This document shows positions 315 to 8,223 of a DNA stretch of 8,403 nt, one piece after another. The notes beneath the pieces are model-generated. The model was not told the DNA's origin, searched no databases, and worked only from the letters and a program-made list of their open reading frames with translations. Every line of letters starts with the position of its first letter. Within the stretch, counting starts at the first letter, position 1. The translations under genes were made by a program, and so were the position numbers. Source of the stretch: a virus (lineage: Duplodnaviria; Heunggongvirae; Uroviricota; Caudoviricetes); IMG/VR virus record IMGVR_UViG_2802429224_000013; one strand, 5' to 3'.

Positions 315-467
315 CTATTCCGACTTTAAGCTGAATGTGACTTTACCTATATCTTTAGAGGTGTGGTCGCGCTTGACCTCTATTTCACCATTTTGTAGCC
401 CTGCTACAAAAAAATATAAAAGTGTCAATGCTGCTGCAATCAGTAACCATTTTCTAGGAATATACAT
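315..467 (-). CDS. Small single-pass membrane protein (50 aa), function unknown
   Basis: Hand-translated minus-strand ORF, below the length cutoff of the supplied track: MYIPRKWLLIAAALTLLYFFVAGLQNGEIEVKRDHTSKDIGKVTFSLKSE. It has a basic N-terminus, an ~18-residue hydrophobic helix and a charged tail. It starts 21 nt after the RHH stop, on the same strand, upstream of the terminator at 33-63. The SD is weak (AAGGG, 11 nt upstream). No homologue recognised. Confidence 0.45.
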   Translation of the reverse strand: MYIPRKWLLIAAALTLLYFFVAGLQNGEIEVKRDHTSKDIGKVTFSLKSE

Positions 468-488
468 TCTTGATTTTACCCTTAATCA

Positions 489-662
489 TCAACCTTTTGG
501 CTCGATGCCCCGCTGTTGTAATTCTTTGCGGAGTACTCGTTTAATCCAAGTAGCTAATGAGGTGTCGCCGTCTGCTTTGGCTGCCTCCTCAAGTTGCGCT
601 CTAAATTCTTCTGGTAGTCGCATTTGGTATGGTGGCGATCGTTTCTCTAATGGTGTTGACAT
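489..662 (-). CDS. Arc/Mnt-family ribbon-helix-helix DNA-binding protein (57 aa), probable island repressor
   Basis: Hand-translated minus-strand ORF, not in the track: MSTPLEKRSPPYQMRLPEEFRAQLEEAAKADGDTSLATWIKRVLRKELQQRGIEPKG. The segment PPYQMRLPEEFRAQL...DGDTSLATWIKRVL aligns by eye with P22 Arc (PQFNLRWPREVLDL...NGRSVNSEIYQRVM), giving beta-strand, helix, helix. The SD AAGGG lies 8 nt before the ATG. The start codon abuts a perfect palindrome. Confidence 0.72.
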   Translation of the reverse strand: MSTPLEKRSPPYQMRLPEEFRAQLEEAAKADGDTSLATWIKRVLRKELQQRGIEPKG

Positions 663-1927: not shown

Positions 1928-2218
1928 ATGAAAAAGAAAAATTCTGGCTTTACTGCCAGCGGTCTCTCTCGGCCTGAAATCAGACACGGAGATATTTACC
2001 GCGACACCAGACGTGGGGGACGAGTGGTTATTCGTCACGTTACGCCAGGCAATATCACCTACCGCCGTGAGGCTTACGAATATGACTGCGTAATGCCGCG
2101 CCGTCAGTTTGAGCGTGATTTTATTCTGGTTGAAAACAAACAACAGGCAGTGGCAAGACGTGCAGCCACGAATATTAAAAAAATCCGGGCAATGTTGGTT
2201 GCGGGAGGTAAGAAGTGA
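1928..2218 (+). CDS. DUF4222-like small protein (96 aa)
   Basis: Track ORF. AGGAAA lies 8 nt upstream of the start. The pattern GDIYRDTRRGGRVVIRHVTPGNITYRREAYEYDCVMPRRQFERDF resembles DUF4222 proteins common in enterobacterial prophage-like islands. That call is from recall. The stop overlaps the next start (GTGA at 2215-2218). Confidence 0.65.
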   Translation: MKKKNSGFTASGLSRPEIRHGDIYRDTRRGGRVVIRHVTPGNITYRREAYEYDCVMPRRQFERDFILVENKQQAVARRAATNIKKIRAMLVAGGKK

Positions 2219-3627
2219 AAAACGCACCGAATTTAAAATATCAGCCGAAGGATAAATTCACCGAGGTAATCATTTTTGCCGGGACGGACGCTTACTCCCA
2301 TGCTCAACACTGGATTGAAAGCGAAGGACGAAAACACGGCGATAACGTACCACCTGTTTACCTGGGGCCGAAGCAACTGGCAGACCTGGCGAATATCCGC
2401 ATTATTGACGAGAAACGCCGCTTTGCGCGTGTCTATCTCGCGGGGGAGATCGAACCAATCCAGATCAATGCTATCGCTGAAAAACTGGCGCTGGCTGGCG
2501 TACAGGAGGCGAAATTATACAAAGGCATCACCGACCGGGAGCCGGAGAACTGGCGCGATTACCTGCAACGAATCCGCGAACAGCCAGAGCACGAAGAAAT
2601 GCTTACTGACGAGCAATACAGCCAGCGAAAAACCACACTACCAATGAGCATTGGATCGGAAGGATATGATTCACAGCTTAGCTATGTAGTTAAGGGCGTG
2701 ATTCCGGCTAATTCGCTATGTAGCACATACGGTGCGAGCGGTTCTTATAAGTCGTTCCTTGCGTGTTCGTGGGCATGTCATGTTGCTACCGGTATCCCGT
2801 GGGGAGGTCGCAGGGTTGTACATGGTGCGGTTATGTATGTCGTTGGTGAGGGCGGGATCGGTGTTCCTCGTCGTATCAAGGCATGGGAACTGGTGAACAG
2901 TGAGCAGGTGAAAAATCTGTACCTGGTAAATCGTCCAATTTTTCCGGCCGCACCGAGTGATGTTGATGAAATGGTTATTGCTGCCCGACAGGTTGAGCTG
3001 GAAACGGGTAAACCTGTACGCATGATTATTCTGGATACTCTGGCGCGTTGCTTTGGTGGCAGCGATGAAAATGATGCGCGGGATATGGGGGCATTTGTCC
3101 ATGGATGTGACGAACTGAAACGGCGTACAGGCGCTACAGTGCTGGTAATTCACCATTCCGGCAAGGATGAAACAAAGGGTGCGCGCGGTTCCAGTGCGTT
3201 TCGTGCAGCACTGGATGCAGAGTACCGGATACGCCGTGAAGGTGCAGGCAGTGAAGCCCTGGTTATCGCATGTACCAAGATGAAGGATGCGGAGGAACTG
3301 AAAGAAATGGCTTGCGATTTGCGCGAGGTTGAGCTTTTCAAGGATGAAGGCGGGGAGTTAATCACGTCGTTGGTGCTGGAGGATAAACCCCGTCCGCCAG
3401 TTGAACTGGAGCGCATCGAGTACGTTGCTAACAAGACAGAGAATCACGCCGCGCTATGGGGCTGTATCCGTTCACGCACGCAACGCGGAGATAAATGCAC
3501 TATCCCGTTGTTGCGCGATGACATGAAAAAGCTGGGGTATGAGATGAAAAACTTCCGACGCTGGCTGTACAAGCTGGAAGGTGACGGCGTAATCGCTATT
3601 GACGATGATGACGTGCGCCCACTGTAA
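2215..3627 (+). CDS. Replication initiator/helicase-type RecA-fold ATPase (AAA_25/RepA-DnaB-like), 470 aa, with C-terminal winged-helix-like domain
   Basis: This is the longest ORF. It has a GTG start coupled to the upstream stop. The Walker A-like motif is GASGSYKS (nt 2731-2754) and the Walker B-like motif is MIILD (nt 3022-3036). LARCFGGSDENDARDMGAF and VLVIHHSGKD are typical of AAA_25/RepA-type proteins. The basic C-terminal ~70 aa is consistent with a DNA-binding domain. Iterons begin at its stop codon. Confidence 0.88.
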   Translation: MKNAPNLKYQPKDKFTEVIIFAGTDAYSHAQHWIESEGRKHGDNVPPVYLGPKQLADLANIRIIDEKRRFARVYLAGEIEPIQINAIAEKLALAGVQEAKLYKGITDREPENWRDYLQRIREQPEHEEMLTDEQYSQRKTTLPMSIGSEGYDSQLSYVVKGVIPANSLCSTYGASGSYKSFLACSWACHVATGIPWGGRRVVHGAVMYVVGEGGIGVPRRIKAWELVNSEQVKNLYLVNRPIFPAAPSDVDEMVIAARQVELETGKPVRMIILDTLARCFGGSDENDARDMGAFVHGCDELKRRTGATVLVIHHSGKDETKGARGSSAFRAALDAEYRIRREGAGSEALVIACTKMKDAEELKEMACDLREVELFKDEGGELITSLVLEDKPRPPVELERIEYVANKTENHAALWGCIRSRTQRGDKCTIPLLRDDMKKLGYEMKNFRRWLYKLEGDGVIAIDDDDVRPL

Positions 3628-4013
3628 AAAGTGAGGCGTAAAAGTGAGGGGGACAGGGAATATTTAAAAATCACCCCTGTTTCCCTCACTTCTCAACCTG
3701 TATATATACCAAAAAGTGAGGAGTTAATTTTGTACTAAAAAAACAAAGAGTTAAGTGTATTCGCATTTTCTATTTTTGAATATAGGGCAAATAATAAATG
3801 TGAGTAGTAAATGTGAGGAATAGTGAGTAAATAGAATAAATTCTCTGGAAATTACAAACAGGTAAAAAATAAAACAAATAAAGATTTTAACTAAAACTTA
3901 ACTATTTGCCTCATATTTGCGTATATATAGGGGTTTTAAAGTGAATACTTAAAAATACATTTAAAATCATATTGTTATTAACTTCATAAATTCTCACTGT
4001 GTAGCAGGTGAGG
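3626..4013. other. Putative origin of replication: GTGAG(G) iterons flanking an AT-rich core
   Basis: Seen in sequence: AAAAGTGAGG occurs at 3627-3636, 3640-3649 and 3712-3721, with an inverted copy CCTCACTT at 3684-3691. Variants are AAATGTGAGT (3796-3805), AAATGTGAGG (3809-3818), AATAGTGAGT (3819-3828), an inverted CTCAC (3993-3997) and GTGAGG (4008-4013). The clusters flank a very AT-rich stretch (~3829-3992) containing GTATATATA at 3700-3708 and 3921-3929. A 15-bp imperfect inverted repeat spans 3644-3658 and 3675-3689. The origin function is inferred from its position next to the replication gene, as in SaPI/PICI ori. Confidence 0.62.
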
Positions 4014-4038
4014 AATTAAAAAATCAGGAATGTTAAAA

Positions 4039-4812
4039 ATGAAAACAGAACGTTACATACCTCAGGGTATGACTTACATAGAGCGTGAAGAACTGAAAAG
4101 TTTTGCGACATCATGTGGACTACGCGGCGATATTCAGAGCCTTACCAGAACTCTGATAATGATTGCGCACTGGATGAGGCAGGGTAAGCCAGTGAGCTTC
4201 ACAGAATACGCCAGCCAGTGGACAGAGGCACAGCGCGAACGGGACGACGGTAATCACTCAACGCCTGAAATGGCGAAGCAATGGCCTTTCAGTGGCAAAC
4301 GATGCATTTATCCCAGGTGCTCCGATTACTACCCATACGGAACGGAAAGAGAACATCAGGATGACGAAACGGAAATTAAACACGCAGTAACGGTAATTCT
4401 TGCCAAATACCCGTTTTTTAACCGCAATGGTCTTGTTCGGTATAGCCGTGACAAGCCATGGGAGCACCCGCTTGATTATGTCTGTTTTATGGAGGAGGCA
4501 AAAAGCTGTTTGCGCTGGATAAGGGAGAACAATCTTACCGACTGCAAAATTGCATCATTCCCCGGTAAAAATCCGACATCCTACGGCCTGAAACATTGTG
4601 TTGAACGGGCGAATCAAATAAGAGCAAAGGCAAACGGAAAACCCACGGAGCCGACGTATATCACAAACGGTGCTCTAATTGCCGCAATGGTCGCGGCTGG
4701 TTATCAGATAAAGCCTGAAGGAAGGATGAATTGCCGATTCAATATTTCGCGTAAGCAGCTTAAGAGTGTATTGAGCGGGGAATCTTACAAATCAGGAGAG
4801 TGGACGATATAA
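4039..4812 (+). CDS. Hypothetical protein (257 aa), no family recognised
   Basis: Track ORF 4030..4812. The ATG at 4039 is preferred because AGGA (4026-4029) lies 9 nt upstream and abuts the ATG at 4030. It is the first gene after the AT-rich ori region and contains several Cys residues (for example CIYPRC). I cannot assign a domain by eye. Confidence 0.72.
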   Translation: MKTERYIPQGMTYIEREELKSFATSCGLRGDIQSLTRTLIMIAHWMRQGKPVSFTEYASQWTEAQRERDDGNHSTPEMAKQWPFSGKRCIYPRCSDYYPYGTEREHQDDETEIKHAVTVILAKYPFFNRNGLVRYSRDKPWEHPLDYVCFMEEAKSCLRWIRENNLTDCKIASFPGKNPTSYGLKHCVERANQIRAKANGKPTEPTYITNGALIAAMVAAGYQIKPEGRMNCRFNISRKQLKSVLSGESYKSGEWTI

Positions 4813-5366: not shown

Positions 5367-5650
5367 TTCACGACAGCAAAGCGGAAGCACTGGAAGCGCG
5401 TGGTCTGTACCGGAGAGCGGCGGCGCGGTGGGCTGAGGTCATCATGCTGGCGAATGATGACAAGGCACGGGAACAGGCGGCAAAACGTCGCGCGGAATGT
5501 ATCCGCAAGGCAGCACGCCCACCAGCAAGGCAGGATAATTTCGGAGAGATGCGCGAAACCATCAGCCGGGCACATGCCGGGATGGGATTACATCAGCCCA
5601 ATGGTAAGGCATTCAGGAAATACCCTGGATCGAAAAATTGCAGTCAGTGA
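5363..5650 (+). CDS. PerC-family transcriptional regulator-like protein (95 aa)
   Basis: Track ORF. The ATGA overlap with the upstream stop (5363-5366) indicates coupling. The segment KAEALEARGLYRRAAARWAEV...RRAECIRKA...QPNGKAFR matches the PerC/Pch family motif (A..LE..G.YRRAA.RW) as I remember it. Confidence 0.7.
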   Translation: MIHDSKAEALEARGLYRRAAARWAEVIMLANDDKAREQAAKRRAECIRKAARPPARQDNFGEMRETISRAHAGMGLHQPNGKAFRKYPGSKNCSQ

Positions 5651-5655
5651 CGGAG

Positions 5656-5679
5656 GCCGGGATTTTTCCCGGCTTTTTT
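5656..5679 (+). terminator. Rho-independent terminator ending the first rightward operon
   Basis: Seen in sequence: GCCGGGA (5656-5662), TTTT loop, TCCCGGC (5667-5673), then TTTTTT (5674-5679). It starts 6 nt after the PerC-like stop. Confidence 0.78.
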
Positions 5680-5685
5680 GTGCCA

Positions 5686-5726
5686 GTAAAAAACCCGCAG
5701 CCAGAAGTGTTGCGGGCTTTGTTTTT
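5686..5726. terminator. Second, bidirectional-looking terminator hairpin
   Basis: Seen in sequence: CCCGCA (5694-5699) pairs with TGCGGG (5711-5716), extendable by a G.U and a C-G pair. An A-run precedes it (5686-5693) and CTTTGTTTTT follows (5717-5726). Confidence 0.55.
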
Positions 5727-5786
5727 CAGGTGATTGAAGTCAATGGGAAGAACGCGATCATCATGCGTTATTGTTTCATAAATTGC

Positions 5787-6025: not shown

Positions 6026-6064
6026 TGGTCGTGATTTTTTGGTGAAAAAAGAGAGGTGGTAAAA

Positions 6065-6649
6065 ATGCCAGCAAGCAAAGAAGATTTGCGATTAAAACTG
6101 ATGGAGGTGGTTAACGCTCTGTCAGAGTCGCAGGGCAGCACTCCGCAGGAGATTATCGAAATTCTGAATGCGATCCCCGCACAGGATTTCACAAAAGCGG
6201 ACGAGGATGACGCGAATAAAAACATCGTCGCGTCAGTCGAAGATGAATCCTCACTGGCAGAAGCCCAGGCTAAAGCGGATTCCGCATACAGCAATATGGG
6301 CCGTCGCGCTCCAGCCCCGTTTGCTGGTGAAAAGTCGATGGATTACCGCAAGCGTGCATTAATTGGTGCACAGAAGCTGGCTAAAAAATTCAGTGATGTG
6401 GATATTCGTTCCGTTTCAGATTCTGCAACGCTGGCGGTGCTGGAAGATCAGATTTACCAGGCTGCAAAAGACAGTGTTCAGTGGGCTGTGGAAAATACGC
6501 CGGGCTATTTGCGTAAAACCGTAAGAATGGATGAAGCCGGACGGCGGATTACTGAATATCAGGGGGATCCGAATAACTGGCTTAGTGCTTTCAAAATCCC
6601 TCCCCGTCGCCTGGTTAAAATTAACGTTGCAAGCCTCGCGGGGGCATGA
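6065..6649 (+). CDS. Hypothetical protein (194 aa), acidic N-terminal half
   Basis: Track ORF 6056..6649. The ATG at 6065 is preferred because GAGAGG (6051-6056) lies 8 nt upstream. No family recognised. It is co-oriented with and close to the flanking genes. Confidence 0.72.
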   Translation: MPASKEDLRLKLMEVVNALSESQGSTPQEIIEILNAIPAQDFTKADEDDANKNIVASVEDESSLAEAQAKADSAYSNMGRRAPAPFAGEKSMDYRKRALIGAQKLAKKFSDVDIRSVSDSATLAVLEDQIYQAAKDSVQWAVENTPGYLRKTVRMDEAGRRITEYQGDPNNWLSAFKIPPRRLVKINVASLAGA

Positions 6650-6713: not shown

Positions 6714-7385
6714 ATGCTTTTAACAGAAATTGAGGCGGCAAAGCAGATTCGGGACGGTCAGCTACCGTCGCCTTATCAGTTTTCCAACATGTGGCTGATT
6801 AACCTGCGTATCACAGGAACCGGAATGGCCTATCGCGCCGAAGAAAAAGAATTTGTCTGGCGTTCACCGCAAACTTATCTCAATCCGCAGTTCCTGGAAC
6901 GTTGCGCCGGAGTACCCGTCATCATCGACCATCCCGAAAGCAAAACCCTTGAAGACGTGGGCGAACGGTCGCGCATTATTGGCACCGTCATGTTGCCGTA
7001 TATTCGCGGTGACGAGGTGTGGGGCGTATGCCGGATTTACGGGCAGGAAATCATCGATTACATCCAGAAAGCCCGGGGGGAGATATCCACCAGCCCGTCG
7101 GTTGTGTTTTGTGGTGCGTCCGGTGGGGCAGAAGTTCCTGATGTAATGGGCGAGGACAATTTTTTTATTGAGGGTACGCCATTTCTTATCGATCACGTTG
7201 CACTCGTACCGTTGGGCGTATGGGATAAGGGCGGGAAACCATCAGGTGTGGAAGTAACAACGCCGACAGAAGAAGAACAGCTCGCCGGAATGGTTCGTGA
7301 AGTTATTGATGCGGCCTGCAAGCCAGCCCTGGAAAAACTGGAAGAAATATCCGGGCGGCTGGCTCAACTGGAAAAAGAAGGGTGA
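6714..7385 (+). CDS. DUF2213-like phage head-assembly (scaffold/protease-like) protein with C-terminal coiled-coil tail, 223 aa
   Basis: Track ORF, with a GGGGG SD before the ATG at 6714. GVPVIIDHPE...IIGTV...GEISTSPSV...FLIDHVALVPLG resembles the DUF2213 pattern (..EHP.., ELS.GY, NHLALV..GRAG) as I remember it. The tail EEEQLAGMVREVIDAACKPALEKLEEISGRLAQLEKEG looks helical or coiled-coil. The family call is uncertain. Confidence 0.7.
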   Translation: MLLTEIEAAKQIRDGQLPSPYQFSNMWLINLRITGTGMAYRAEEKEFVWRSPQTYLNPQFLERCAGVPVIIDHPESKTLEDVGERSRIIGTVMLPYIRGDEVWGVCRIYGQEIIDYIQKARGEISTSPSVVFCGASGGAEVPDVMGEDNFFIEGTPFLIDHVALVPLGVWDKGGKPSGVEVTTPTEEEQLAGMVREVIDAACKPALEKLEEISGRLAQLEKEG

Positions 7386-7391
7386 GTCATA

Positions 7392-7919
7392 ATGCTAATG
7401 AGCAAGGCAGAATATGCCAAACACAAAGGCGTAAGCCGCCAGACAGTTTACGACTGGATCGAGAAAGGCGAAGTGATCATGTCTGGCAAAAAAATTGATG
7501 TGGAGGCGACAGAGCAGCGGAACAGCCCACCGGAACAAGGGAAAGACACCGTTTCTGAAATGTGGCCAGAAAGAACGCTGGAAATGACGTGGGGCGAGTT
7601 CTGGAAAGCAGTTAAGGCCAGAGACGGTAAAGACCCAGCGCCAGTAACTGACGATGATATAGAGCAGCGCGTGCGGAATGCAGCCGAAGAATTAGGCTGG
7701 GAAGTGCAATTTCTTGATGGTGGTGCTATCTGCCTTGAGGATTGCGACGGACAGCATTACTTTGAGCAATACGATTTGCTGGGTAATGCTCGTCTGGCAA
7801 TTCGTATGCTGCGTTGCGAACTCTGCTATGTTGCAGGTGATTATCCCGATGAACTGGAATCATGGAGTGAAGCCGGGCTAAACGCCCTGGCTGAATGGGA
7901 AAAATCAGACCATCAATGA
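7392..7919 (+). CDS. N-terminal HTH DNA-binding protein (MerR/excisionase/Nu1-type HTH), candidate small-terminase-like or Rpp-like packaging factor, 175 aa
   Basis: Track ORF, with an alternative start at ATG 7398. MSKAEYAKHKGVSRQTVYDWIEKGEV matches the HTH_17/Nu1-like helix-turn-helix pattern. The C-terminal ~120 aa is unrecognised. A dense repeat array follows immediately. The packaging role is inferred from context. Confidence 0.7.
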   Translation: MLMSKAEYAKHKGVSRQTVYDWIEKGEVIMSGKKIDVEATEQRNSPPEQGKDTVSEMWPERTLEMTWGEFWKAVKARDGKDPAPVTDDDIEQRVRNAAEELGWEVQFLDGGAICLEDCDGQHYFEQYDLLGNARLAIRMLRCELCYVAGDYPDELESWSEAGLNALAEWEKSDHQ

Positions 7920-7925
7920 CATCAA

Positions 7926-8219
7926 AAAGTGTCAAGTTGAGCAGCTTGCCAGGTTGACACTTTGCACTCTGAACGCGAAAAAGTGTCAACCTCGCTGTAA
8001 ACCCCGCCGTTACTGGCTTTGCGCCAGATTTACCACGTCAAAAAGCCGAAAAAAATCGCGAAAAGTGTCAAGTTGCCATGCTTAGAAATGCTAAGGTTTG
8101 ATAAGGTTTGATAAGGTTTTTCGCGAAAAAGTGTCAAGTGTGTCAACCTGCGATGTTAAGATTTGTTAAGGTCTCAAGCCGGAAAGTGTCAACCAGCCCC
8201 TAAGATTTCCTAAGGTGTA
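7926..8219. repeat. Composite array of two interleaved short motifs: AAAGTGTCAA boxes and 10-bp phased TAAG(G/A)T units
   Basis: Seen in sequence: AAAGTGTCAA occurs at 7926-7935, 7980-7989, 8062-8071, 8128-8137 and 8183-8192. There is an inverted copy TTGACACTTT at 7954-7963 and a partial GTGTCAA at 8140-8146. The tandem 10-bp units are CTAAGGTTTG/ATAAGGTTTG/ATAAGGTTTT (8091-8120), GTTAAGATTT/GTTAAGGTCT (8155-8174) and CTAAGATTTC/CTAAGGTGTA (8200-8219). A palindrome CTTAG-aaatg-CTAAG lies at 8081-8095. Confidence 0.85.
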
Positions 8220-8223
8220 AATC

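What the first reader, a model, noticed from the sequence alone, without database searches (positions are those of the whole stretch)
3626..4013. Iteron origin begins at the stop codon of the replication gene; its motif shares an AAAAGTG core with the distal array
At least nine GTGAG(G) elements in both orientations form two clusters around a ~160-bp AT-rich core, and the first iteron overlaps the TAA of the ATPase gene. Two inverted iterons form a 15-bp imperfect inverted repeat (3644-3658 / 3675-3689), which could extrude as a hairpin or act as an RNA stem-loop at the 3' end of the replication mRNA. The ori iteron AAAAGTGAGG and the distal box AAAAGTGTCAA (7926-8192, ~4.2 kb away) share the 7-nt prefix AAAAGTG. 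This recalls phage P4, where the alpha protein binds repeats both in ori and in the distant crr region. The 3' halves differ here, so a shared binder is only a hypothesis.
Basis: partly seen in the sequence, partly recalled or inferred. Interest (0 to 1): 0.5.

Follow-up and report, generated by a model that had tools for sequence, protein, structure and literature searches.

The report
Replication origin of a phage satellite
This AT-rich stretch packed with GTGAGG repeats is very probably the replication origin of an E. coli phage-satellite island of an already described kind, and it has no detectable link to the distant repeat array.

Summary
Nine of the window's 19 GTGAG pentamers lie in 3626-4013, a region of 15-30% GC. 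The first repeat shares an A with the TAA stop codon of the 470-aa ATPase gene.

The window is part of a PICI-type phage satellite of E. coli. In this family the origin is known to sit directly after rep, as two sets of short repeats flanking AT-rich DNA. The published island EcCIDI14 has an 81%-identical Rep with GTGGGG repeats.

New evidence comes from comparison. In a relative whose Rep is 97% identical, 11 of the 12 repeat positions read GTGGGG/T instead of GTGAGG (the twelfth has lost the motif). Across 119 distinct loci, one Rep residue predicted the fourth repeat base in 118: N gives A, H or K gives G, S or G gives C. In this window that residue is N446, just before the third helix of a predicted C-terminal winged helix.

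The P4-like ori/crr idea is not supported. The AAAAGTGTCAA array persists in islands with unrelated replication proteins and repeats. It is absent from two RepA-type islands examined whole, and it travels with the adjacent 175-aa HTH gene. The long hairpin is real but is not a conserved feature of the family.

Verdict: a new member of a known kind, of modest interest.

The parts
2215..3627 (+). rep: 470-aa RepA-family (AAA_25, RecA-fold) helicase-initiator
   Evidence: Pfam AAA_25, E = 6e-44. PHROG 2850. RefSeq annotates relatives as 'helicase RepA family protein'. It is 81% identical to the Rep of the published PICI EcCIDI14.
3427..3624 (+). Coding region of the Rep C-terminal winged-helix domain (about residues 405-470). 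The predicted specificity residue N446 is codon 3550-3552.
   Evidence: The model of residues 395-470 has pLDDT 88.8 and pTM 0.77. It shows helices 409-424, 430-439 and 447-456 plus a beta hairpin at 460-469. The best structural matches are winged-helix DNA-binding domains such as DtxR, Fur, LexA, H1 and ORC, with TM 0.6-0.8 but E-values above 0.1. Residue 446 co-varies with repeat base 4.
3627..3636 (+). Iteron 1, AAAAGTGAGG; its first A is the last base of the TAA stop codon
3640..3649 (+). Iteron 2, AAAAGTGAGG
3642..3691 (.). Inverted repeat or hairpin: arms 3642-3658 and 3675-3691, 17 pairs including 2 G.T, 16-nt loop. It is built on the convergent iterons 2 and 3.
   Evidence: The extended stem is not general in the family. 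No terminator-like site was found.
3684..3693 (-). Iteron 3 in inverted orientation (reverse complement AGAAGTGAGG)
3691..3698 (-). Degenerate inverted iteron (TCTCAACC); relatives read TCTCACC or TCCCACC here
   Evidence: alignment
3700..3708 (.). GTATATATA box 1, lying between a divergent iteron pair whose cores are 32 bp apart
   Evidence: This motif is found only in the ori (3 hits against 0.01 expected). The module of inverted iteron, TATAYA and forward iteron is present in 53 of 82 relatives. Core-to-core spacing is 30 bp in 43, 32 bp in 7 and 42 bp in 3.
3712..3721 (+). Iteron 5, AAAAGTGAGG
3722..3795 (.). AT-rich spacer 1 (about 25% GC), a candidate unwinding region
3796..3828 (+). Middle cluster of three direct iterons: AAATGTGAGT (3796-3805), AAATGTGAGG (3809-3818), AATAGTGAGT (3819-3828)
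3829..3907 (.). AT-rich spacer 2 (15-25% GC)
3908..3917 (-). Degenerate inverted iteron (GCCTCATATT); relatives read ACCTCACTTT or ACCCCACTTT
3921..3929 (.). GTATATATA box 2
   Evidence: invariant in all five aligned long-type oris
3937..3946 (+). Degenerate iteron (TAAAGTGAAT); relatives read AAAGTGAGT or AAAGTGGGG
3947..3990 (.). Non-iteron block of about 45 bp, nearly invariant (two variable positions) in all long-type oris; function unknown. It contains one IHF-like match with 1 mismatch at 3965-3977.
   Evidence: IHF-like matches are not enriched in the window.
3991..4000 (-). Inverted iteron (TTCTCACTGT, core GTGAGA)
4004..4013 (+). Last iteron (GCAGGTGAGG), 26 nt before the annotated start of the next gene (ATG at 4039)
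7926..8192 (+). NOT part of the origin. Array of 7 GTGTCAA boxes (6 exact AAAGTGTCAA, plus GTGTCAA at 8140-8146), interleaved with TAAGRT repeats, directly after the 175-aa HTH gene 7392-7919. A solitary further AAAGTGTCAA box lies at 419-428.
   Evidence: Independent of the Rep type. Linked to the HTH gene.

Best explanation
Positions 3626-4013 are the vegetative replication origin of a PICI-type phage satellite island. The proposed sequence of events is as follows.

1. After induction, the island's Rep protein (2215-3627) is made. It has a RecA-fold, hexameric-helicase-type ATPase core and a C-terminal winged helix.
2. The winged helix binds the roughly 12 (A)AAGTGAGG repeats. The residue just before its third helix, N446, reads the fourth base (A) of GTGAGG.
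3. The repeats lie in both orientations around two TATATA boxes and two AT-rich spacers. Rep therefore assembles on both sides, melts the AT-rich DNA and loads itself as the replicative helicase without a separate loader.
4. The island then replicates for packaging by a helper phage.

Shown here: the repeat anatomy, its concerted change between near-identical islands, the residue-to-base co-variation, the predicted winged helix and the PICI context. Inferred: binding, melting, self-loading and origin activity, by analogy with SaPI Rep and with the EcCICFT073 pri-rep-ori test. The distant AAAAGTGTCAA array belongs to a different module.
For: Context:
- The best E. coli relative (ETEC1748, L001) shows the order int, alpA-like HTH, antirepressor, icd-like, DUF4222, rep, gap, ProQ/FinO, PerC and further genes. 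All are on one strand and the island is inserted in yifB.
- That insertion site matches the att core listed for the published PICI EcCIDI14. EcCIDI14's Rep is 81% identical to this one and is followed by GTGGGG repeats.
- The literature describes E. coli PICI origins as lying directly 3' of rep, with two repeat sets flanking AT-rich DNA. The EcCICFT073 rep-ori fragment drives plasmid replication (PMC6092414).
- SaPI Rep reads 5-6-nt repeats with a C-terminal winged helix and loads itself (PMC9371898).

Anatomy:
-.

Concerted change:
- The L001 Rep is 97% identical (13 differences), and the island as a whole is 95% identical.
- Its ori, however, is only 71% identical. It reads GTGGGG/T at 11 of the 12 repeat positions; the twelfth (window 3691-3698) has lost the motif in L001.

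Specificity code:
- In 68 distinct loci from genomes of many Enterobacterales plus E. coli, and 51 from metagenomes, the residue preceding [F/L/M/Y]xRW predicted base 4 in 118 of 119. N gave A in 35 of 35, H gave G in 35 of 35, K gave G in 28 of 29, and S or G gave C in 20 of 20.
- The adjacent rep coding sequence holds only 0-3 copies of any one core type in all but one locus.

Fold:
-.

Other:
- No DnaA box within 2 mismatches lies inside 3626-4013. This fits a self-sufficient initiator.
Against: - No experiment on a RepA-type PICI origin was found in the searchable literature. The one tested E. coli PICI origin, EcCICFT073, uses a different Rep family (primase-type).
- The co-variation is not phylogenetically independent. 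The CTD and ori may move together as one recombination unit, so the number of independent switches is small.
- Two N-type loci (L007, L177) have mixed right-hand clusters, and L011 carries a second complete GTGGGG-type ori.
- Three of the roughly 12 repeats in this window are degenerate compared with relatives, so this particular copy could be weakened.
- The full-length Rep model is poor (pLDDT 63).
- The winged-helix structural matches have non-significant E-values because the domain is short.
Confidence: 0.85

Rival explanations
1. P4-like bipartite origin. Rep would bind both the ori repeats and the distal AAAAGTGTCAA array (as P4 alpha binds ori and crr), and the distal array would be needed in cis for replication.
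For: The 7-nt prefix AAAAGTG is shared. My rough estimate is that two unrelated 10-11-mers share a 7-mer in some register with a chance below about 1%. The family-invariant half of the RepA-type repeat is (A)AGTG.
Against: There is a double dissociation.
- The same array, with box sequence unchanged, sits in islands whose rep is DUF927 with GGTTGTCTCA repeats (L002), or primase-type with GGGTAGAT repeats (L003).
- RepA-type islands read end to end have zero boxes (L136; EcCIDI14).
- When the ori repeats switch from GTGAGG to GTGGGG (L001), the distal boxes do not change.
- No exact ori repeat (AAGTGAGG) occurs outside the ori.
- The boxes stay with the 175-aa HTH gene down to 59% protein identity. 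They change to GTGTAAA-type boxes next to a 60%-identity homologue.
Confidence: 0.03
2. The repeats are mainly transcriptional control sites rather than an origin. Rep or another protein would bind them as operators, and the hairpin would terminate rep mRNA, setting the expression of rep and the downstream genes.
For: - The region lies between two co-oriented genes.
- The stem is strong (-35.7 kcal/mol, z = -5.5) and contains two G.U pairs that pair only on the + strand.
- In several relatives the inverted repeat is followed by a T-run supplied by the A-tract of the repeat itself.
- The last repeat lies 26 nt from the next start codon.
Against: - The scan found no terminator-like site and no sigma-70-like promoter.
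- The tail after the stem is TTCTCAAC.
- Across 63 distinct oris, the stem extension beyond the repeats is not general: median z = -0.27, and only 16% have z < -1.64. There is no strand bias (27 against 20).
- About 12 repeats in both orientations around 15-25% GC spacers and TATATA boxes is the published origin layout.
- This reading is compatible with an origin rather than exclusive of it.
Confidence: 0.08
3. A decayed or non-functional origin copy. The window's island would carry a degenerate ori that no longer fires.
For: Three repeat positions are degenerate compared with L004 and L005 (3691-3698, 3908-3917, 3937-3946). L003 shows that fossil RepA fragments with their oris do persist.
Against: - rep is intact and 470 aa long.
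- Nine exact cores remain.
- The same ori variant is 99.5% identical in an independent genome, ARS-C101.
- N-type Rep with GTGAGG repeats recurs in metagenome contigs with 96-98% identical Rep (L139-L141 and L144).
Confidence: 0.04

Closest known systems
Replication origins of Gram-negative PICIs (Fillol-Salom et al. 2018, ISME J, PMC6092414), in particular the RepA-type island EcCIDI14 listed there
   Same: - Same island architecture, and the same att core as EcCIDI14 in the closest relative.
- Rep is 81% identical to EcCIDI14's.
- The origin lies directly after the rep stop codon, with short repeats in two or more sets around AT-rich DNA.
- It has the same left module: two or three direct repeats, an inverted repeat, a TATATA box, then a direct repeat.
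   Different: - Repeat core is GTGAGG with Rep N446, against GTGGGG with H in EcCIDI14.
- This ori is the long form (about 390 bp, three clusters, a second TATATA module) rather than the roughly 200-bp form.
- The cargo and packaging modules differ: no capsid genes here, but DUF2213, an HTH protein and the box array.
- Only EcCICFT073, which has a primase-type Pri-Rep and GTCTACC-type repeats, has been tested for replication.
SaPI Rep/ori of Staphylococcus aureus (Ubeda et al.; Qiao et al. 2022, PMC9371898)
   Same: - 6-12 penta- or hexanucleotide repeats immediately downstream of rep.
- An AT-rich centre, with repeats in opposite orientations on each side.
- An initiator that is also a helicase, and a C-terminal winged helix that gives origin specificity.
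   Different: - SaPI Reps are AAA+ helicases (superfamily-3/MCM-like), whereas this Rep has a RecA-fold AAA_25 (RepA/DnaB-like) core.
- No sequence similarity was detected to any solved structure except a weak match to RSF1010 RepA (E = 0.048).
Phage P4 alpha protein with ori and crr
   Same: A satellite of enterobacterial phages. Its initiator-helicase has a C-terminal DNA-binding domain that recognises short repeats.
   Different: - In P4 the same repeat occurs in both ori and crr, and both are needed. This rests on my own knowledge and on the discussion in PMC6092414.
- Here the distal boxes differ in their 3' half and are genetically independent of Rep.
- Rep has no alpha-type primase domain.
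RSF1010 (IncQ) RepA helicase
   Same: RecA-fold hexameric helicase core (AAA_25). It is the only solved structure matched by sequence (1g8y, E = 0.048).
   Different: IncQ RepA has no DNA-recognition domain; a separate protein, RepC, binds the repeats (my own knowledge). Here a winged helix is fused to the helicase.

Membership tests
PICI-type origin (rep-adjacent iteron ori) | The origin lies immediately 3' of the replication initiator gene | tested here: met
   Repeat 1 (3627-3636) overlaps the stop codon 3625-3627. The same holds in 45 of 82 relatives.
PICI-type origin (rep-adjacent iteron ori) | Several short repeats in two or more sets flanking an AT-rich region, with copies in opposite orientations | tested here: met
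   About 12 repeats in three clusters, 4 of them inverted. The spacers are 15-25% GC.
PICI-type origin (rep-adjacent iteron ori) | The initiator has a helicase ATPase and a C-terminal DNA-binding domain matched to its own repeats | tested here: met
   AAA_25. Predicted winged helix. Residue 446 co-varies with repeat base 4 in 118 of 119 loci. Physical binding was not tested.
PICI-type origin (rep-adjacent iteron ori) | Island context: integrase, alpA, rightward unidirectional genes and a specific att site | tested here: met
   Seen in the closest relative L001, whose att core matches EcCIDI14. The window itself starts after int/alpA.
PICI-type origin (rep-adjacent iteron ori) | Rep-dependent autonomous replication of a rep-ori fragment | not testable with these tools
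   Shown only for EcCICFT073, which has a different Rep family.
P4-type bipartite origin (ori + crr) | The same repeat sequence is present in ori and in a distant cis element | tested here: not met
   AAGTGAGG occurs only in the ori. The distal boxes read AAGTGTCAA.
P4-type bipartite origin (ori + crr) | The distant element is inherited together with the initiator | tested here: not met
   The array is present with DUF927-type and primase-type rep. It is absent from the RepA-type islands L136 and L138.
P4-type bipartite origin (ori + crr) | An alpha-type primase-helicase initiator | tested here: not met
   Only AAA_25 was found by Pfam. There are weak partial PHROG primase matches to the N-terminus only.
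Plasmid iteron replicons (RepA/pi/TrfA type) | DnaA boxes in the origin; the initiator is made of winged-helix domains and has no helicase | tested here: not met
   No TTATCCACA-like site within 2 mismatches lies in 3626-4013. The initiator carries a helicase core.
Intrinsic terminator at the 3' end of rep | A GC-rich stem with a short loop, followed by a T-run | tested here: not met
   The scan found none. The loop is 16 nt and the tail is TTCTCAAC. The stem extension is not conserved.
Lambda-type cos / Rpp-directed cosB (considered for the distal array) | cosN next to the array and an Rpp homologue | tested here: not met
   No cosN-like site was found in L001 within 2 mismatches, other than a chance hit in rRNA. 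The 175-aa protein has no sequence match to any solved chain at E <= 0.1, although RppC structures have been solved. Only its N-terminal HTH resembles terminase small subunits (phrog_57, E = 3e-7).

The most novel reading that the evidence does not exclude
A one-residue recognition code sets replicon specificity in RepA-type satellites. The residue just before the winged-helix third helix (N, H, K, or S/G) would read the fourth base of GTGNGG (A, G, G, C). Switching specificity would require changing that residue and all of the roughly 10-12 repeats together. This would create separate replication specificity groups among otherwise near-identical islands. It would also leave hybrids and orphan second origins (L007, L011) that may allow cross-activation between co-resident satellites.
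Probability: 0.55. Interest if true: 0.5.

Novelty: new member of a known kind. Interest (0 to 1): 0.3.

Why it matters
The origin itself is an expected part of a PICI, so it mainly helps with annotation. It marks the replicon of a widespread E. coli satellite type and corrects 'AAA family ATPase' to 'replication initiator-helicase'.

The comparative result is more useful. It gives a simple, testable rule linking one Rep residue to the repeat sequence. The rule could be used to predict which satellites can cross-replicate or interfere with one another, and to design orthogonal rep-ori pairs for PICI-based delivery vectors.

Showing that the distal array is not a crr-like element redirects attention to the adjacent HTH protein. 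That protein may have a packaging or regulatory role.

Tried and rejected
1. P4-like ori/crr link: rejected by the double dissociation.
2. Hairpin as a conserved RNA or DNA structure. I folded the interior between the convergent repeats in 63 distinct oris. The median z was -0.27 with no strand bias. The long stem is particular to this window and a few other lineages.
3. Intrinsic terminator or promoter in 3500-4100: none found by the consensus scan.
4. DnaA boxes and IHF sites. No DnaA-like site lies in the ori. IHF-like matches are not enriched.
5. Rfam: no family matched at the ori. There were only two sub-threshold hits elsewhere.
6. Full-length Rep model: poor quality (pLDDT 63), and its fold search was uninformative. 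Only the C-terminal domain model was used.
7. Phage database: no nucleotide match, so the element is not a deposited phage.
8. Lambda cosN next to the distal array: not found.
9. Rpp homology of the 175-aa protein: not found by sequence against solved structures.
10. Literature search for a described residue-to-repeat code in Gram-negative PICIs: nothing found in the searchable library. This does not prove that none exists.
Full report
**What the window is**

The 8.4-kb window matches chromosomal islands in 1611 of 5426 complete E. coli genomes and matches no deposited phage. The closest full-length relative is in strain ETEC1748 (L001), where the island is inserted in yifB. From left to right it carries an integrase, an AlpA-like HTH gene, an antirepressor, an icd-like gene, small ORFs and DUF4222. 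It then carries a 'helicase RepA family' gene, a roughly 400-bp gap, ProQ/FinO, PerC, a DUF2213 protein, a 175-aa HTH protein and a repeat array. All genes are on one strand.

This is the gene order of Gram-negative phage-inducible chromosomal islands (PICIs) as defined by Fillol-Salom et al. 2018 (PMC6092414). The right end of L001 holds the att core listed in that paper for EcCIDI14. EcCIDI14 itself (L138) encodes a Rep that is 81% identical to the window's.

**Checking the observation**

- GTGAG occurs 19 times in the window, and 9 of these lie in 3626-4013. That is 23 per kb against 1.2 per kb elsewhere (binomial P = 6e-8).
- The 8-mer AAGTGAGG occurs exactly four times, all in the left part of the region.
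- GC falls to 15-30% between 3700 and 4000.
- The stop codon is 3625-3627, and the first repeat AAAAGTGAGG is 3627-3636.
- Alignment with four relatives adds three degenerate copies at positions where the relatives have intact repeats.
- The layout is three clusters (3627-3721, 3796-3828, 3908-4013) separated by two AT-rich spacers of about 75-80 bp.
- The motif GTATATATA occurs only here, at 3700-3708 and 3921-3929 (0.01 expected). Each copy lies between an inverted and a direct repeat.
It folds at -35.7 kcal/mol, z = -5.5.

**Evidence that these are functional repeats read by Rep**

The strongest evidence is comparative. The Rep of L001 differs from the window's at 13 of 470 residues, and the islands are 95% identical overall. 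The region after rep, however, is only 71% identical. In L001, 11 of the 12 repeat positions read GTGGGG or GTGGGT instead of GTGAGG; the twelfth (window 3691-3698) has lost the motif there. The TATATA boxes and a block of about 45 bp stay constant or nearly so. A change at nearly every copy at once is what is expected of sites read by a single protein.

Among eight E. coli oris, the Rep motif GYEMK-N-FRRWL goes with GTGAGG and GYEMK-H-FRRWL goes with GTGGGG. I then collected 80 loci from one genome per species and 80 from metagenomes. In 119 distinct loci with a recognisable ori, the residue before [F/L/M/Y]xRW predicted base 4 of the repeat in 118:

| Residue | Repeat base 4 | Loci |
|---|---|---|
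| N | A | 35 of 35 |
| H | G | 35 of 35 |
| K | G | 28 of 29 |
| S or G (after an R-K insertion) | C | 20 of 20 |

In a stricter tally of 72 loci the table was fully diagonal: KN with GTGAGG (23), KH with GTGGGGA (8), KK with GTGGGGG (32), KS with GTGCGG (7) and RKH with GTGGGGG (2). In the adjacent rep coding DNA no single core type exceeds 3 copies, apart from one locus with 5.

The caveat is relatedness. The C-terminal domain and the ori may be exchanged together as one unit, so the number of independent events is much smaller than the number of loci. Even so, N and H variants both occur inside several otherwise very similar E. coli Rep lineages.

**The Rep protein**

Pfam finds only AAA_25 (E = 6e-44). 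The only solved structure matched by sequence is the RSF1010 RepA helicase, and weakly. The full-length model is poor and its fold search was uninformative.

The model of residues 395-470 is confident (pLDDT 88.8, pTM 0.77). It consists of three helices followed by a beta hairpin. Its best structural matches are winged-helix DNA-binding domains: DtxR, Fur, LexA, linker histone and an ORC winged helix. TM scores are 0.6-0.8, but the E-values are not significant because the domain is short. N446 sits immediately before the third helix (447-456), which in winged-helix proteins usually lies in the major groove. That last point is established knowledge about the fold, not something tested here.

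**Family-wide architecture**

In most relatives the order after the stop codon is:

1. two or three direct repeats;
2. a spacer of 15-35 nt;
3. one or two inverted repeats;
4. a TATAYA box;
5. a direct repeat;
6. AT-rich DNA;
7. a further cluster of direct repeats.

The divergent pair around the TATA box has a fixed core-to-core distance: 30 bp in 43 of 53 loci, 32 bp in 7 (including this window) and 42 bp in 3. No DnaA-box-like site lies in the ori, and no Rfam family matches it.

This layout matches what is described for SaPI origins and their self-loading Rep helicases: 6-12 repeats right after rep, an AT-rich centre, opposite orientations on the two sides, and a C-terminal winged helix (PMC9371898). 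It also matches the description for E. coli PICIs (PMC6092414). The one E. coli origin tested experimentally, EcCICFT073, uses a different, primase-type Rep with GTCTACC-type repeats. Origin activity of the RepA type is therefore inferred, not demonstrated.

**The hairpin**

The convergent repeat pair that forms the base of the stem is present throughout the family. I folded only the interior between the two repeat cores in 63 distinct oris:

- The median z-score against shuffles was -0.27, and only 16% fell below -1.64.
- The window (-3.5) is among the exceptions.
- Neither strand folded better consistently (27 against 20).
- The consensus scan finds no terminator and no promoter.

I conclude that the inverted repeat is mainly a by-product of two oppositely oriented Rep sites. 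A local role of the extended stem in this lineage, as an RNA 3' end or a cruciform, cannot be excluded.

**The distal array and the P4 analogy**

The array at 7926-8192 is real: 7 matches to AAAGTGTCAA in the window against 0.72 expected. It is interleaved with TAAGRT repeats. It does not belong to the Rep replicon, for these reasons:

- In STEC719 (L002) the replication gene is a DUF927 primase-helicase followed by its own ori, with nine GGTTGTCTCA repeats in two opposed sets around an AT-rich stretch. The distal array is nevertheless the same.
- In PapRG-04-4 (L003) a primase-type rep with GGGTAGAT repeats is followed by a fossil RepA fragment, and the array is again unchanged.
- Conversely, the RepA-type islands in RM9975 (L136) and clone D i14 (EcCIDI14, L138), read end to end, contain no such box.
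- When the ori repeats switch from GTGAGG to GTGGGG, the boxes stay the same.
- The boxes accompany the 175-aa HTH gene. All 42 IMG/VR homologues of at least 78% identity that have enough downstream sequence carry 5-7 boxes directly after the gene.
- A 59%-identity homologue keeps five boxes in otherwise unrelated spacer DNA.
- A 60%-identity homologue has GTGTAAA-type boxes instead.

The N-terminus of that protein resembles the HTH of terminase small subunits (phrog_57, E = 3e-7) and, more weakly, Cox-like excisionase-repressors. No lambda-type cosN lies nearby, and the protein has no sequence match to any solved chain. The function of the array therefore stays open; it may be a packaging recognition site or a regulatory site. 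A solitary eighth box is conserved far upstream (window 419-428).

**Novelty and verdict**

The segment is the origin of a PICI-type satellite, a kind of element and a kind of origin already described. It is an allelic variant: GTGAGG repeats with N446, in the long three-cluster form. I file it as a new member of a known kind.

The P4-like link is not. The part that goes beyond published descriptions, as far as I could search, is the one-residue rule relating Rep to its repeats. That rule is a prediction to be tested by an N446H swap.

Noticed in passing
L011:2527-2990 (Xenorhabdus beddingii): After an N-type Rep there are two complete origins in tandem. The first is a GTGAGG-type ori. It is followed by a full GTGGGG-type ori with the same architecture, which may be an orphan origin that an H-type Rep from another island could fire.
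   Followed up: partly
L007:1828-2030, also L177: N-type Rep whose right-hand repeat cluster mixes GTGAGG and GTGGGG copies. This looks like a recombinant or transitional origin.
   Followed up: no
window 419-428 (also L001:8422-8431, L002:702-711): A solitary copy of the distal box AAAGTGTCAA is conserved about 7.5 kb upstream of the array. It lies between the antirepressor and the icd-like gene, inside a small minus-strand ORF (315-467). This hints that the box-binding protein also acts in the early region.
   Followed up: partly
window 7392-8222: The 175-aa protein has a terminase-small-subunit-like or Cox-like N-terminal HTH. It is followed by 7 GTGTCAA boxes interleaved with TAAGRT repeats. 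The boxes persist with the protein down to 59% identity and vary in a 60% homologue (L133, L134). It may be a packaging-recognition or regulatory module of unknown type.
   Followed up: partly
L112:2030-2090: A sevenfold tandem expansion of CAGCTTGC lies between the first two distal boxes in one IMG/VR contig.
   Followed up: no
window 1928-2218: The DUF4222 gene overlaps the rep start codon. It is kept directly upstream of all three unrelated replication genes (RepA-type, primase-type, DUF927-type) in related islands, so it is probably a replication accessory factor.
   Followed up: no
L003:5672-8560 (E. coli PapRG-04-4): A primase-type rep with its own GGGTAGAT-repeat ori is followed by a C-terminal RepA pseudogene fragment and its GTGGGG ori. 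This is a fossil of a replication-module replacement. Its last two repeats are GTGAG-type.
   Followed up: partly
window 3700-3708 and 3921-3929; L002 about 4585-4595: A (G)TATATATA box sits between divergent repeats in RepA-type oris, with a fixed core-to-core spacing of 30 or 32 bp. A similar TGTATATATAG also occurs in the unrelated DUF927-type ori. It may be a shared melting site or host-factor site.
   Followed up: partly
window 6056-6649 and 6714-7385: These two adjacent ORFs match successive parts of one 545-residue PHROG family (phrog_6216). The second also matches DUF2213 and, weakly, head-maturation proteases. RefSeq labels the first as a NUDIX hydrolase, which Pfam does not support.
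   Followed up: no
window 315-662, minus strand: A 57-aa Arc-like ribbon-helix-helix ORF (489-662) lies next to a 50-aa hydrophobic ORF (315-467), in the only minus-strand segment of the island. Relatives annotate a YlcI/YnfO family protein here. It could be a small toxin-antitoxin or regulatory pair.
   Followed up: no
window 5650-5730: Two GC-rich hairpins with T-runs follow perC and are likely terminators. There is a sub-threshold Rfam hit here (ncr1175, E = 0.076) that is probably chance.
   Followed up: no
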